From a virus: a DNA stretch of 25,176 bases. Below are positions 17,757 to 19,564 of the stretch, in pieces (position 1 is the first letter of the stretch; every line of letters starts with the position of its first letter). The DNA lies in the IMG/VR virus record IMGVR_UViG_3300032038_000604, positions 1 through 25,176 of that record, one strand, 5' to 3'. The position numbers and the translations under genes are program-made. A model generated the notes under the pieces. It saw nothing but the letters and a program-made list of their open reading frames with translations, was not told where the DNA came from and did not search any database.

Positions 17757-17978
17757 ATGAATAAATTATGGTCAAAAGATTGGTGGAAAGCCGCAGGAAC
17801 AAGAGCAATTAAAACATTTGCACAAACTTTTGTTGGCTCTGTCGCAGTAGGAATGGCGATAAGTGATATTAACTGGCTTACAGTTGCCTCTGTTGCAGCC
17901 GTAGCATCAGTATTAAGCCTTATGACTTCTATTGCGGGAATCCCTGAAGTAAAGGAGGAAAATGAACAATGGCATTAA
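17757..17978 (+). CDS. Holin, 73 aa, phage_holin_4_1 / LL-H type.
   Basis: RBS aaaggagg. The N-terminal WKAAGTRAIKTFAQTFVG motif is typical of this holin family. There is one central hydrophobic transmembrane helix and an acidic C-terminus. It sits immediately upstream of the endolysin and overlaps it (ATGGCATTAA). It has no in-frame TAG. Confidence 0.65.
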   Translation: MNKLWSKDWWKAAGTRAIKTFAQTFVGSVAVGMAISDINWLTVASVAAVASVLSLMTSIAGIPEVKEENEQWH

Positions 17979-19564
17979 AAGGTATTGATGTTTCTTATTC
18001 TCAAGGAAGTATAAATTGGGCAAAAGTAAAATCTCAGATAGATTTTGCAATTCTTAGAAGTACATTTGGCTCAGATTTACCAAGTCAAACTGATAGTCAA
18101 TTTCATCAAAATGCCAATGGATGTGTAAAAAATAATATTCCATTTGGAATTTTTCATTTTGGTTATTTTGTAGATGAATAGACTGCAAAAGGGTAGGCTG
18201 ATTTTGCTATTAGAATAGCAAATGAATATAAGCAATATGTAAAATTTATTGCATTAGATTTAGAAGAAGATTCTGAAAGATATGCAAAAAGAGTTGGTAA
18301 AATTCCTAATTGGGGAAAATGTGCAATTATTTTCTTATAGAGAATAAAAGCAGCAGGTTATACTCCTGTAATTTATACAAATGTTGATTGGATGCAAAAT
18401 AAATTAGGCGGATATAATAATATGAAAGCCTATAAAATATGGTTTGCAGGTCCAGATGCAAAAGCTCCAAAATATGATGCTTCAATCTGGCAATATAATT
18501 GGACAGGAAAAATTAGTGGTATAACTGGAAATGTTGATTTAGATTATTTATATGATGATAATTTATTAAAATCAAAAACAACCACTTCATCTACAAAAAT
18601 AAGCGATAAAGATACATTTTTAAATCAAGCCCGCACTTATATTGGAAAAGATGGTCAATATGTATGTAAAACCAAACTTGGGCTTGGCGCAGTATATGAT
18701 TGGTGTGCATTTTCAATCTCAGCAATTATGAAAGATTGTGGCTTTATTGGAAAATATCAAGGTGGAATTTATAGTTTTGCTTCTGATAATGCCAGAAATG
18801 ATAATGGTAAATACGGAGAATGGTTCCTTAAAGGAAAGAAAACTCCCGCTCCCGGCGACTTAATTATGTTTAAATATGCTTCATTTACTAATCCTGTTGA
18901 TAAATATTCTGCAAGTCATATAGGAATTGTAGAAAAAGTAAATGGAAATGAAATTACTACATTAGAAGGAAATGTAGACGGATATGGAAATAATTGGGCA
19001 GGAACATCAAGTTTCAAAAGAAAAACAAGATATTTAAACAATTCAGATGTATATTCATTCTTCCGCATCTGGTGGGATGGAAAGAAAACTACTACTTCAA
19101 GCGGAAGCTCAAATACAACAACAAAACCAACTACTTCTACTTCAACCGCATCAATAGCTCCTGATATTTATTATCAAGTATATGCTGGCGGAAGATGGCT
19201 TCCTGAAGTAAAAAATCTTGAAGATTATGCAGGACTTGAAAATCAAACAATTCAAGGTATTTACATGAGAACTACAAAAGGTCATATAAAATATAGAGTT
19301 AAAACTGTTGATTCTCAAAATTATTTGCCTTGGGTATATGATAGAAATGATTATGCAGGTATAATTGGTAAAAATATTGCTTGGGTACAAGCTACTCTTG
19401 AAGGAGTAAATGGATATCAAACTTCATATAGAGTTTCTACTACTGCATCAACTAATTATTTACCTTGGGTTACAAATTATAATACTGTAAATGATAATGG
19501 ATATGCAGGTGGAAAATCAAATCAATCTATTGATAAATTACAAATAAAAATTGTAAAAAAATAA
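17969..19564 (+). CDS. Modular endolysin: GH25 muramidase + CHAP peptidase + 3 ChW-like cell-wall-binding repeats. 531 aa, TAG-recoded.
   Basis: The standard ORFs 17969..18181 and 18392..19564 are in the same frame. They are joined through TAGs at 18179, 18194 and 18338, with no TAA or TGA between them. The N-terminus has GH25 motifs: GIDVSYSQGSINW, FGIFHFGYF, KFIALDLEED, AGYTPVIYTN and IWQYNW...NVDLDYLYDD. The middle has a CHAP-like Cys/His pair (YDWCAFSIS ... SHIGIVEKV). The C-terminus has three ~50-aa repeats with conserved Y-x-x-Y/HAGG-x-W-LPWV and NYLPWV motifs. Confidence 0.7.

What the first reader, a model, noticed from the sequence alone, without database searches (positions are those of the whole stretch)
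17757..19564. Lysis cassette: unrecoded holin coupled to a three-domain endolysin whose only TAG codons sit in the N-terminal GH25 domain
The holin has WKAAGTRAIKTFAQTF and no TAG. It overlaps the endolysin start. The endolysin is GH25 muramidase + CHAP peptidase + three ChW-like repeats. All three of its TAGs fall within the first 125 codons. Premature termination there gives an inactive fragment, so endolysin activity depends on suppression. ChW-type (clostridial hydrophobic-W) repeats and the dual muramidase-plus-peptidase design point to a Gram-positive host, probably Clostridia-like. That helps host assignment for this recoded phage.
Basis: partly seen in the sequence, partly recalled or inferred. 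Interest (0 to 1): 0.5.

Follow-up and report, generated by a model that had tools for sequence, protein, structure and literature searches.

The report
Amber-recoded phage lysis cassette; TAG probably glutamate
This is an ordinary holin plus three-domain endolysin gene pair from a large rumen phage of Clostridia-type bacteria, but its in-frame TAG stop codons, and those of its relatives, line up with conserved and catalytic glutamates, so this phage group appears to read TAG as glutamate rather than the glutamine assumed until now.

Summary
A 73-aa r1t-type holin (17757-17978, no TAG) overlaps by 10 nt a 531-codon endolysin (17969-19564) with in-frame TAGs at codons 71, 76 and 124.

Pfam supports GH25 and CHAP. 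The C-terminus gets no Pfam ChW hit, but profile searches show a divergent triple ChW-like module.

The endolysin is one polypeptide. It needs TAG read-through, because the first TAG lies before the DxE catalytic motif.

The "TAGs only in the N-terminal domain" pattern is not meaningful. It has P of about 0.05-0.1 given where E/Q codons sit, and relatives carry TAGs in CHAP and the binding module.

The Clostridia host call is supported: relatives sit in rumen Ruminococcus and Acutalibacteraceae MAGs.

The unexpected result is that the TAG=Q assumption is probably wrong.
- In the endolysin and a RuvC-like nuclease, TAG aligns with conserved Glu, including catalytic Glu.
- TAG never occurs at the invariant Gln column of the RuvC-like nuclease.
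- Relatives encode a CUA tRNA built like the phage tRNA-Glu, not its tRNA-Gln.

TAG-to-Glu has not been reported for phages, as far as I could find.

The parts
17697..17736 (+). Intrinsic-terminator-like hairpin (14-bp stem, T-run) directly upstream of the holin. No sigma-70-like promoter lies between it and the holin start.
   Evidence: terminator scan; 6 found in the region against 1.4 expected; sequence.
17743..17749 (+). Shine-Dalgarno AAGGAGG for the holin, 7 nt before the ATG.
   Evidence: direct reading.
17757..17978 (+). Holin, 73 aa, Phage_r1t_holin family. It has two hydrophobic stretches and an acidic C-terminal tail, and no TAG.
   Evidence: PF16945, E 1.9e-17, 63.6 bits; phrog_443 holin, 7.1e-20; relatives' holins also TAG-free.
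17952..17958 (+). Shine-Dalgarno AAGGAGG for the endolysin, inside the holin 3' end and 10 nt before the ATG. This fits translational coupling.
17969..19564 (+). Endolysin gene, 531 sense codons plus TAA, read through three TAGs.
   Evidence: the database already holds the identical 531-aa product, P0001, with Q at the TAGs, plus more than 1000 homologues.
17984..18523 (+). GH25 muramidase domain (aa 6-185). Catalytic Asp7 is at 17987-17989. The DxE motif is Asp97 (18257-18259) and Glu99 (18263-18265).
   Evidence: PF01183, 1-180/180; alignment to Cellosyl 1JFX, D98/E100.
18179..18181 (+). In-frame TAG, codon 71. The homologue column is variable: Q/K/A/E.
18194..18196 (+). In-frame TAG, codon 76. 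The column is Glu in 91 of 100 homologues. The five 'Q' calls that I could check at the DNA level are TAG codons. This TAG is shared by relatives down to about 62% identity.
18338..18340 (+). In-frame TAG, codon 124. The column is Glu in 87 of 100 homologues.
18695..18973 (+). CHAP peptidase/amidase domain (aa 243-335). Cys246 is at 18704-18706 and His317 at 18917-18919.
   Evidence: PF05257, 34.2 bits, cutoff 26. DWC and S-x-S-H are conserved in the homologues.
19166..19561 (+). Cell-wall-binding module of three divergent ChW-like repeats: aa 400-439, 440-484 and 485-531, at nt 19166-19285, 19286-19420 and 19421-19561. It follows a Ser/Thr-rich linker.
   Evidence: (AF2 pLDDT 95.2, all-beta). 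No solved structure resembles it.
19577..19650 (+). Two tandem terminator-like hairpins (19577-19602 and 19613-19650) that close the cassette.
19658..19686 (+). Perfect sigma-70 consensus promoter (TTGACA-17-TATAAT with TG) for the downstream TAG-free RNase H/topoisomerase genes. It marks the cassette as a separate transcription unit.

Best explanation
The locus is a two-gene lysis cassette of a large (probably about 130-146 kb) TAG-recoded phage that infects rumen Clostridia (Ruminococcus/Oscillospirales-like).

- **Holin:** an r1t-type holin with two hydrophobic segments makes the membrane lesion.
- **Endolysin:** it is translationally coupled to the holin through a 10-nt overlap. It cuts peptidoglycan with a GH25 muramidase and a CHAP peptidase/amidase, and is targeted by a triple ChW-like wall-binding module.
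- **Setting:** terminators bracket the cassette, which lies among TAG-free early/replication genes.
- **Dependence on suppression:** the endolysin always carries at least one TAG within its first ~143 codons, while the holin never does. Full-length, active endolysin can therefore be made only once TAG is being decoded, which in relatives involves a phage-encoded tRNA(CUA). This fits the published idea that recoded stops delay late and lytic proteins.
- **Identity of TAG:** it is most likely read as glutamate, not glutamine. The mature protein then reads ...DEETAKGEADF... and ...FLERIK....

Shown here: the gene structure, the domains, the single reading frame, the TAG distribution, the host range of homologues, and the alignment of TAG with Glu columns.

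Inferred: the timing role, read-through of the upstream terminator, the Glu charging of the suppressor, and the presence of a suppressor in this particular genome.

Sub-probabilities: cassette function 0.9; TAG=Glu about 0.75.
For: **Cassette and domains**
- Pfam and PHROG hits support the holin, GH25 and CHAP assignments.
- The catalytic residues D7, D97, E99, C246 and H317 are present.
- The same gene order (RNA ligase, AAA_33 kinase, metallophosphoesterase, r1t holin, endolysin) occurs in relatives at 63-71% identity.

**Binding module**
- In homologues the C-terminus is swapped for SH3_3 or Cpl-7.
- The same module is attached to Amidase_2/3, GH25, M23 and others.
- hhalign against triple ChW gives 99.3%, E 2.7e-20.

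**One polypeptide**
- GH25 matches 1-180/180 across the TAGs.
- There is no Shine-Dalgarno before 18392 or 18422.

**Early/late TAG pattern**
- TAG-free genes in the window hold roughly 250 Glu codons and no TAG.
- In the tape measure, tail fibre and RuvC-like genes, TAG makes up 20-39% of (TAG+Glu) codons.

**TAG = Glu**
1. RuvC-like nuclease, 30 recoded and 32 TAG-free phage loci.
   - At the invariant acidic column 62 the codons are GAA/GAG 58, TAG 10, CAA/CAG 0.
   - At column 141 they are E 51, TAG 10, Q 0.
   - At the invariant Gln column 80 they are CAA/CAG 54, TAG 0.
   - Codetta-style log10 likelihood is E -25.3 and K -38.7, with Q outside the top six (< -60).
   - The nearest relative lacking the TAG has a Glu codon 39 times and CAA 7 times.
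2. Endolysin.
   - Across 17 TAG columns, E scores -16.9 and Q -23.5, even though database 'Q's derived from TAG inflate Q.
   - TAG sits on the catalytic Glu99 codon of the DxE motif in three relatives from two lineages: L029, L192 and L191.
3. Suppressor tRNA.
   - tRNA(CUA) genes occur in the tRNA arrays of clade members (L274, L276, L278, L290, L297, L304, L306, L307).
   - They share the phage tRNA-Glu(UUC) architecture: 3-bp D stem, 11-nt D loop (AGCGGTTTAA in both), a 3- or 4-nt variable loop by ARAGORN's drawing (4 nt in the tRNA-Glu), and G1-C72 or C1-G72.
   - The co-resident tRNA-Gln has U1-A72 with G73, a 9-11-nt D loop and a 4-6-nt variable loop.
Against: **Against TAG = Glu**
- In the closest genome pair (window vs L001, 91% identical endolysin) the codons opposite a TAG are CAA x3, CAG x1 and GAA x1. 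That is the pattern expected for Gln.
- Three endolysin TAG columns (71, 89, 294) are Gln-dominated in homologues, including standard-code ones.
- Pfam scores do not favour Glu: GH25 87.9 bits (E) vs 88.8 (Q); RuvC 21.1 vs 22.9.
- No suppressor tRNA was found in the window. None was found in 75.4 kb of the 91%-identical contig either; its array has Ser, Ser, Glu, Lys, Arg, His and Cys only.
- tRNA identity was judged from architecture only, not from a trained isotype model or an aminoacylation assay.

**Against a timing role**
- The holin, which normally sets lysis time, is TAG-free.
- No expression data exist.
Confidence: 0.75

Rival explanations
1. It is the same cassette, but TAG is read as glutamine (genetic code 15), as the first reader, the protein database (P0001) and the literature assume. 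The Glu-column pattern would then reflect frequent GAG-to-TAG (E-to-Q) substitutions that are tolerated.
For: The closest-pair partner codons are mostly CAA/CAG. Endolysin TAG columns 71, 89 and 294 are Gln-rich. Pfam scores are marginally better with Q. All previously described TAG-recoded phages were assigned Gln.
Against: - It would place Gln at the catalytic Glu of GH25 in two lineages.
- It would place Gln at an invariant acidic residue of the RuvC-like nuclease in 10 of 30 recoded phages.
- Neither recoded nor standard-code relatives ever use CAA/CAG at those columns.
- TAG is absent from the invariant Gln column 80 (0 of 30 recoded loci).
- The clade's CUA tRNAs lack U1-A72/G73, which its own tRNA-Gln has.
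Confidence: 0.15
2. TAG is decoded ambiguously, for example as a Glu/Gln mixture from a tRNA handled by a non-discriminating GluRS and only partly amidated, or by near-cognate read-through after release-factor 1 is impaired. TAG would then be tolerated at both Glu and Gln sites.
For: TAG is found at both Glu-dominated and Gln-dominated columns. Partner codons include E, Q, K, D and A. No suppressor was found in the nearest relative's 75 kb.
Against: In the RuvC-like gene the signal is strongly one-sided for Glu. Dedicated CUA tRNAs exist in clade members. A mixture at catalytic residues would waste part of the product.
Confidence: 0.07
3. The two standard-code ORFs are separate products: a 70-aa N-terminal fragment, and a CHAP plus binding-module lysin started internally at 18392 or 18422. 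The GH25 part would be a decaying pseudogene.
For: Standard-code gene callers report 376-381-aa products for relatives (P0007-P0010, P0021, P0025, P0042). CHAP-only lysins with other binding domains exist in non-recoded phages.
Against: - The GH25 model matches full-length across the TAGs, and all catalytic residues are kept.
- The GH25 part is as conserved as the rest in relatives.
- There is no Shine-Dalgarno before the internal ATGs.
- The whole genome shows TAG read-through in late genes, for example 65 TAGs in the tape measure.
Confidence: 0.03
4. Placing the TAGs specifically in the N-terminal catalytic domain is a selected 'gate', so that no partly active fragment is ever made.
For: Every recoded relative examined has its first TAG within about 143 codons. 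All three TAGs in this window lie in GH25.
Against: P is only 0.05-0.10 once the positions of Glu/Gln codons are considered. Relatives also carry TAGs at codons 277, 294, 322, 385, 415 and 460. TAG positions turn over completely between 87%-identical genes.
Confidence: 0.1

Closest known systems
Holin-endolysin cassettes of phages of Gram-positive bacteria (Lactococcus phage r1t-type holin; modular GH25/CHAP endolysins such as the Cpl-1/Cpl-7 type and dual-domain staphylococcal and streptococcal lysins)
   Same: A small two-segment holin lies directly upstream of, and overlaps, a modular endolysin. The endolysin has an N-terminal GH25 with D...DxE, a second CHAP catalytic domain, and a C-terminal wall-binding module that is exchanged among relatives for SH3_3, Cpl-7 or ChW-like modules.
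   Different: The endolysin is interrupted by three TAG codons. The cassette sits among early genes between terminators. The binding module is not recognised by any Pfam model.
ChW (clostridial hydrophobic W) repeats, Pfam PF07538 / IPR006637. These are known accessory domains of GH25, amidase, NlpC/P60 and other wall hydrolases (PMC6403190).
   Same: There are three tandem ~45-aa beta-rich repeats with the Y-R-V...W-L-P-W-V...Y-A-G...I-D-x-h-Q-h pattern. The profile-profile match to genuine triple-ChW units is in register. The same range of catalytic partners is seen.
   Different: It fails the Pfam ChW model outright. The repeats are longer, with inserts (N-Y-N-x-x-N-D-N-G-Y-A-G). It forms its own large family, with 3519 representatives at E<=0.001. 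No solved structure exists to compare against.
Stop-codon recoding in gut and rumen phages as a regulator of late and lytic genes (Borges et al., bioRxiv 10.1101/2021.08.26.457843; genetic code 15, TAG to Gln)
   Same: Early and replication genes are written in standard code. Structural genes, the endolysin and homing endonucleases carry in-frame TAG. Suppressor tRNA(CUA) genes occur in clade members. Recoded intron/homing endonucleases inside early genes are described there too.
   Different: That work reports only TAG-to-Gln and TGA-to-Trp for phages whose code differs from the host's. Here TAG aligns with Glu. The holin is consistently unrecoded. No code-change module lies next to the cassette.
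Peritrich ciliate nuclear code (NCBI table 30, TAA/TAG to Glu); from my own knowledge
   Same: It is the only catalogued code in which TAG means glutamate.
   Different: It belongs to a eukaryotic nuclear genome in which TAA is also reassigned. It is unrelated in mechanism and lineage.

Membership tests
Phage_r1t_holin (PF16945) / phrog_443 holin | Profile match above the curated threshold | tested here: met
   63.6 bits vs cutoff 26.9, E 1.9e-17; phrog_443, E 7.1e-20.
Phage_r1t_holin (PF16945) / phrog_443 holin | Small membrane protein encoded immediately upstream of the endolysin | tested here: met
   73 aa with two hydrophobic stretches, by inspection. It overlaps the endolysin start by 10 nt. 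The arrangement is the same in 9 relatives. No transmembrane predictor was run.
Glycoside hydrolase family 25 (PF01183) | Full-length profile match | tested here: met
   84.8 bits, model positions 1-180 of 180. Sequence matches to solved GH25 structures 1JFX, 4JZ5, 3HMC and 2WAG.
Glycoside hydrolase family 25 (PF01183) | N-terminal Asp plus the DxE catalytic motif | tested here: met
   D7, D97 and E99 align with Cellosyl D9(region)/D98/E100. Enzymatic activity was not tested.
CHAP domain (PF05257) | Profile match above threshold, plus the catalytic Cys and His | tested here: met
   34.2 bits vs 26. C246 (DWC) and H317 (SASH) are conserved in homologues.
ChW repeat (PF07538) | Match to the Pfam ChW model | tested here: not met
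   No hit at E<=1 on the whole protein, nor at E<=10 on the C-terminus or on single repeats. None of the close homologues carries a precomputed PF07538 annotation.
ChW repeat (PF07538) | Homology to genuine ChW repeats, detectable with profiles | tested here: met
   The profile of the module hits proteins whose matched segments are 3xChW by Pfam (E 1e-19 to 4e-58). hhalign gives 99.3%, E 2.7e-20 over 123 columns. Caveat: the ChW segments were picked through that same profile.
Genetic code 15 (TAG to Gln) phage | In-frame TAG inside conserved genes that are otherwise intact | tested here: met
   Endolysin 3, RuvC-like 7, tape measure 65, homing endonuclease 3.
Genetic code 15 (TAG to Gln) phage | TAG aligns with Gln in homologues | tested here: not met
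   Glu is the best fit in two families (RuvC-like: E -25.3, Q < -60; endolysin: E -16.9, Q -23.5). There is no TAG at the invariant Gln column. Some columns and the closest-pair comparison do favour Gln.
Genetic code 15 (TAG to Gln) phage | Suppressor tRNA(CUA) with tRNA-Gln features | tested here: not met
   Clade CUA tRNAs have G1-C72 or C1-G72, an 11-nt D loop and a 3- or 4-nt variable loop, like the phage tRNA-Glu. The phage tRNA-Gln has U1-A72 with G73. No CUA tRNA was found for this exact phage.
Recoding-gated lysis (Borges et al.) | Early genes in standard code; late and lysis genes carry the recoded stop | tested here: met
   table. The endolysin is the only TAG-bearing gene between 11.8 and 22.7 kb.
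Recoding-gated lysis (Borges et al.) | Delayed translation of the lysis protein until the code switch | not testable with these tools
   This needs time-resolved expression or proteomic data.

The most novel reading that the evidence does not exclude
A large clade of ~130-146 kb rumen/gut phages of Clostridia, to which this window belongs, has reassigned the amber codon TAG to glutamate. It would do so with a tRNA-Glu-like suppressor tRNA(CUA), a genetic-code variant not described for any virus or bacterium. Current pipelines translate these genomes with code 15. They therefore put Gln at hundreds of Glu positions per genome, including catalytic residues. A plausible route (inference) is that the hosts' GluRS accepts the CUA tRNA, while the lack of U1-A72 keeps it away from the Gln pathway.
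Probability: 0.72. Interest if true: 0.85.

Novelty: new variant of a known kind. Interest (0 to 1): 0.62.

Why it matters
The cassette itself is routine. It gives a usable host clue (rumen Clostridia) and adds a large, unannotated ChW-like wall-binding family with no solved structure.

The wider point is the meaning of TAG.
- If it is glutamate here, the rule that recoded phages use only TAG-to-Gln and TGA-to-Trp is incomplete.
- Code-15 translations of this clade in public databases are then systematically wrong at catalytic and structural Glu sites.
In some relatives that would hit the GH25 general acid.
- It would also supply a natural tRNA(CUA)/Glu pair of interest for genetic-code engineering.

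Tried and rejected
- **Nucleotide and protein searches of deposited phage genomes.** Megablast of 11 kb against 50,697 records found nothing. tblastn with the GyrB-like protein found nothing above 33% identity. No annotated relative exists to borrow a complete genome from.
- **Pfam and NCBIfam on the C-terminal module and on single repeats.** Nothing was found.
- **Search for the suppressor tRNA in this lineage.**
  - I walked the 76.7-kb IMG/VR contig of the 91% relative from 1 to 75,435 with six fetches.
  - I scanned it with ARAGORN and with Rfam.
  - I also ran ARAGORN with introns allowed and a lowered threshold on all loci held at that point, including most of that contig; that produced only noise.
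  - The contig is probably about half a genome.
- **Overall sequence similarity of the CUA tRNAs to other tRNAs.** It was not diagnostic; about 70% identity was found to many isotypes.
- **Pfam bit scores of E- versus Q-substituted proteins.** They do not discriminate.
- **Profile-based scan of genome contigs with the binding-module alignment.** It failed for lack of a conserved 7-mer.
- **Internal-start, N-terminal-gate and two-protein readings.** I considered and rejected them; see the rival explanations.
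Full report
**1. What is in the sequence**

The window has 30% G+C.

- **Holin.** An ATG at 17757 opens a 73-codon ORF that ends at TAA 17976-17978. Its product (MNKLWSKDWWKAAGTRAIKTFAQTF...) matches Pfam Phage_r1t_holin (63.6 bits, cutoff 26.9) and PHROG 443, 'holin'.
- **Endolysin start.** An AAGGAGG at 17952-17958 precedes a second ATG at 17969, inside the holin's last codons. The overlap is 10 nt.
- **Endolysin frame.** It runs to TAA at 19562-19564 and contains exactly three in-frame TAGs, at codons 71, 76 and 124.
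- **Flanks.** A strong terminator-like hairpin (17697-17728 plus a T-run) lies 20 nt before the holin's ribosome-binding site. Two more hairpins (19577-19602, 19613-19650) follow the endolysin. A perfect TTGACA-17-TATAAT promoter (19658-19686) then starts the next genes.

**2. One protein or two**

The evidence favours a single protein that needs TAG decoding.

- The Pfam GH25 model aligns to residues 6-185 over its whole length (1-180/180) straight through the three TAGs.
- The public protein collection already holds the identical 531-aa read-through product (P0001), plus more than a thousand homologues. One hundred of the best 120 are full-length and co-linear.
- The 376-381-aa hits (P0007-P0010 and others) are standard-code miscalls of the same gene in relatives.
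- The internal ATGs at 18392 and 18422 have no Shine-Dalgarno.
- The catalytic residues are in place: D7, D97 and E99, which align with the Cellosyl D98/E100 motif.
- Termination at codon 71 would leave a fragment without the DxE motif, so activity does depend on TAG decoding.

**3. Domains**

GH25 (84.8 bits) and CHAP (34.2 bits, cutoff 26; C246 and H317 present) are supported.

The C-terminal 136 residues give no Pfam or NCBIfam hit, even at E<=10. They nevertheless form a clear module.

- In homologues this position is occupied alternatively by SH3_3 or Cpl-7.
- The same module is found behind Amidase_2, Amidase_3, GH25, M23 and other wall hydrolases, including proteins from Clostridium and Paeniclostridium MAGs.
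- A profile of 35 sequences finds 3519 cluster representatives at E<=0.001.
- Among the hits are long surface proteins whose matched segments are, by Pfam, three consecutive ChW repeats (E 1e-19 to 4e-58).
- hhalign between the two profiles gives 99.3% probability (E 2.7e-20), with the three repeats in register.
- AlphaFold predicts a confident all-beta fold (pLDDT 95.2). No solved counterpart exists.

'Three ChW-like repeats' is a fair description. 'ChW by Pfam' is not. ChW is a recognised accessory domain of GH25 and amidase wall hydrolases (PMC6403190).

**4. The TAG pattern**

*Within the window.* TAG is absent from the + strand block 11.8-17.7 kb (MVP-like protein, RNA ligase, kinase, phosphoesterase) and from RNase H and the topoisomerase genes. 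It is frequent in the tape measure (65), a tail-fibre-like gene, a RuvC-like nuclease (7) and a GIY-YIG homing endonuclease (3). The endolysin is the only TAG-bearing gene in its neighbourhood. This matches the published picture of recoded late and lytic genes.

*Confinement to GH25.* It is not meaningful.
- It has P = 0.05-0.10 once the positions of Glu/Gln codons are taken into account.
- TAG positions in other recoded relatives (window numbering for those mapped; own-gene numbering for L191 and L192):
  - L001: 71/76/124/143
  - L029: 38/89/99/294
  - L020: 143/322
  - L025: 76/104/154/277/294
  - L028: 103/143/294/460
  - L191: 75/98/385/415
  - L192: 38/89/99
.
- So TAGs occur in CHAP and in the binding module, and positions turn over completely between genes that are 87% identical.

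*What is consistent.* Every recoded relative has a TAG within the first ~143 codons of the endolysin. None of ten holins has any TAG, against about 47 Glu codons by my count of the printed sequences.

**5. Which amino acid is TAG**

While tabulating TAG columns I found that L029, L192 and L191 carry TAG at the codon of the GH25 catalytic Glu (ALDL-TAG-EDS). L191 belongs to a different lineage from the other two.

*Endolysin.*
- Columns 76, 99, 124 and 322 are 87-97% Glu in 100 homologues.
- The five 'Q's at column 76 and three at column 99 that I could check at the DNA level are TAG codons.
- Five DNA-verified standard-code relatives have GAA/GAG at columns 76, 99 and 322. At column 124, one of the five (L002) has CAG.
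- A Codetta-style likelihood over 17 TAG columns gives E -16.9 and Q -23.5, even with TAG-derived Q's inflating Q.

*RuvC-like nuclease (independent test).* I fetched its DNA from 80 related phage contigs; 30 were recoded and 32 were TAG-free and near full length.
- At the invariant acidic column 62 (the ME-E-VRP motif, where the RuvC catalytic Glu is expected) the codons are GAA/GAG 58, TAG 10, CAA/CAG 0.
- At column 141 (NDD-E-ADA) they are Glu 51, TAG 10, Gln 0.
- At the invariant Gln column 80 they are CAA/CAG 54, TAG 0.
- Over 30 TAG columns the log10 likelihood is E -25.3 and K -38.7, with Q below -60.
- Within recoded genomes, conserved-Glu columns hold 33 TAGs and the conserved-Gln column none.
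- The nearest relative lacking a given TAG has a Glu codon 39 times and CAA 7 times.

*Suppressor tRNA.* The tRNA arrays of clade members contain a tRNA(CUA).
- ARAGORN folds it with the same unusual architecture as the phages' own tRNA-Glu(UUC): a 3-bp D stem, an 11-nt D loop (AGCGGTTTAA in both) and a 3- or 4-nt variable loop (4 nt in the tRNA-Glu).
- It has G1-C72 or C1-G72.
- The phages' tRNA-Gln has U1-A72 with G73, a 9-11-nt D loop and a 4-6-nt variable loop.
- From established knowledge, U1-A72 is a hallmark used by the bacterial Gln pathways, and a missing nucleotide 47 with an augmented D helix is a tRNA-Glu trait in E. coli. Whether these rules hold in the host is an inference.

*Counter-evidence.*
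- The closest genome pair (window vs L001) shows TAG opposite CAA/CAG four times and GAA once.
- Three endolysin TAG columns are Gln-rich.
- Pfam scores do not discriminate.
- No CUA tRNA was found in the window or in 75 kb of the 91% relative. That contig is probably only half of a ~140-kb genome.

I put TAG=Glu at about 0.7-0.75, TAG=Gln at about 0.15, and ambiguous decoding at under 0.1.

*Prior reports.* The key preprint on phage recoding states that only TAG-to-Gln and TGA-to-Trp were seen. Three library searches found no report of TAG-to-Glu in phages.

**6. Host**

The nearest genomic homologues are in rumen MAGs labelled Ruminococcus, Acutalibacteraceae, Ruminococcaceae and Clostridia.
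- Some, such as the 71.5-kb 'Ruminococcus' contig L029, are clearly the phage itself binned with a host.
- Others (L030 in a 150-kb contig; L021 next to a serine recombinase) are standard-code relatives with the same binding module. L021 looks like a prophage; L030's surroundings were not examined.

A Clostridia (Oscillospirales) host is therefore well supported, though indirectly.

**7. How it most likely works**

*Shown:* gene order, coupling signals, domains, terminators, and TAG distribution.

*Inferred:*
- The cassette is transcribed late, either by read-through of the upstream terminator or from an unrecognised late promoter.
- The holin is translated as soon as mRNA exists.
- Ribosomes re-initiating on the endolysin complete it only when the amber codons are decoded, most likely as Glu by a phage tRNA(CUA).
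- The endolysin then accumulates and reaches the wall through the holin lesion. It binds through the ChW-like module and cuts both glycan (GH25) and peptide (CHAP) bonds.

Because the holin is never recoded, recoding cannot be the primary lysis clock here. At most it prevents endolysin synthesis from leaky early transcripts.

**8. Verdict**

The cassette is a new member of well-known kinds: an r1t holin, a GH25-CHAP endolysin, and recoded late genes. What raises the interest is the by-product. Two enzyme families and the tRNA architecture point to TAG = glutamate in this phage clade, which would be a new variant of phage stop-codon recoding.

Noticed in passing
window 22212-22742, 22902-23840, 23974-25176: A GIY-YIG homing-endonuclease gene carrying 3 TAGs sits between two TAG-free ORFs that together look like one topoisomerase IV/gyrase A-type gene. 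This suggests a split gene or an intron. Relatives have further TAG-rich GIY-YIG and LAGLIDADG-type genes inside the GyrB-like and helicase genes (L029 7928-8878 and 10486-11283; L001 15327-16022; L051 19687-20520). Rfam at gathering threshold called no group I intron.
   Followed up: partly
window 11800-14295: An 831-aa TAG-free protein whose product hits the Pfam MVP_shoulder (major vault protein) family and, faintly, Vault_3. It is conserved next to the tape measure gene in relatives. A vault-like protein is unusual in a phage.
   Followed up: no
L309:1858-1952, L312:6908-6998, L313:3072-3160, L314:6279-6368, L315:4567-4657, L316:1115-1206, L317:2465-2560: More distant relatives, found through the vWA/TROVE-like gene next to the tRNA array, encode CUA-anticodon tRNAs of 89-96 nt. 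That length implies a long variable arm, as in class II tRNAs, and their best matches are Ser/Tyr/Leu tRNAs. This hints that TAG may mean yet another amino acid in those phages.
   Followed up: no
L280, L282, L284-L286, L291, L292, L330-L332, L336 (e.g. L284:4387-4460); L297:6561-6635; L329:1109-1181: ARAGORN reports tRNAs with a four-base anticodon 'taaa' in many related arrays. It reports TTA-anticodon (ochre-type) tRNAs in two. These could be frameshift or TAA suppressors, or mis-folds.
   Followed up: no
L190/L189 (IMGVR_UViG_3300031853_000023, 4272-5651): The 91%-identical relative has a seven-gene tRNA array: Ser-TGA, Ser-GCT, Glu-TTC, Lys-TTT, Arg-ACG, His-GTG and Cys-GCA. It has no CUA tRNA anywhere in 75.4 kb. 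More distant clade members have 20-25 tRNAs including CUA. The source of TAG decoding in this exact lineage is unresolved.
   Followed up: yes
window 2410-11637 (- strand): This is a 3076-codon tape-measure-like gene (PhageMin_Tail in relatives) with 65 in-frame TAGs, which is 20% of its TAG+Glu codons.
   Followed up: partly
window 1050-1538: A RuvC-like resolvase carries 7 TAGs in 162 codons, making it one of the most densely recoded genes. It would be expected to act during DNA packaging. It served as the second test family for the meaning of TAG.
   Followed up: yes
L001:~9990-10003 and L029:~4990-5003 (holin 3' ends): In two close relatives the holin ends three codons earlier, at a stop that replaces the window's CAA. 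I infer it is TAA, giving a TAATG stop-start overlap, because the endolysin ATG is retained; I did not read the DNA there. The coupling geometry therefore varies while the overlap is kept.
   Followed up: partly
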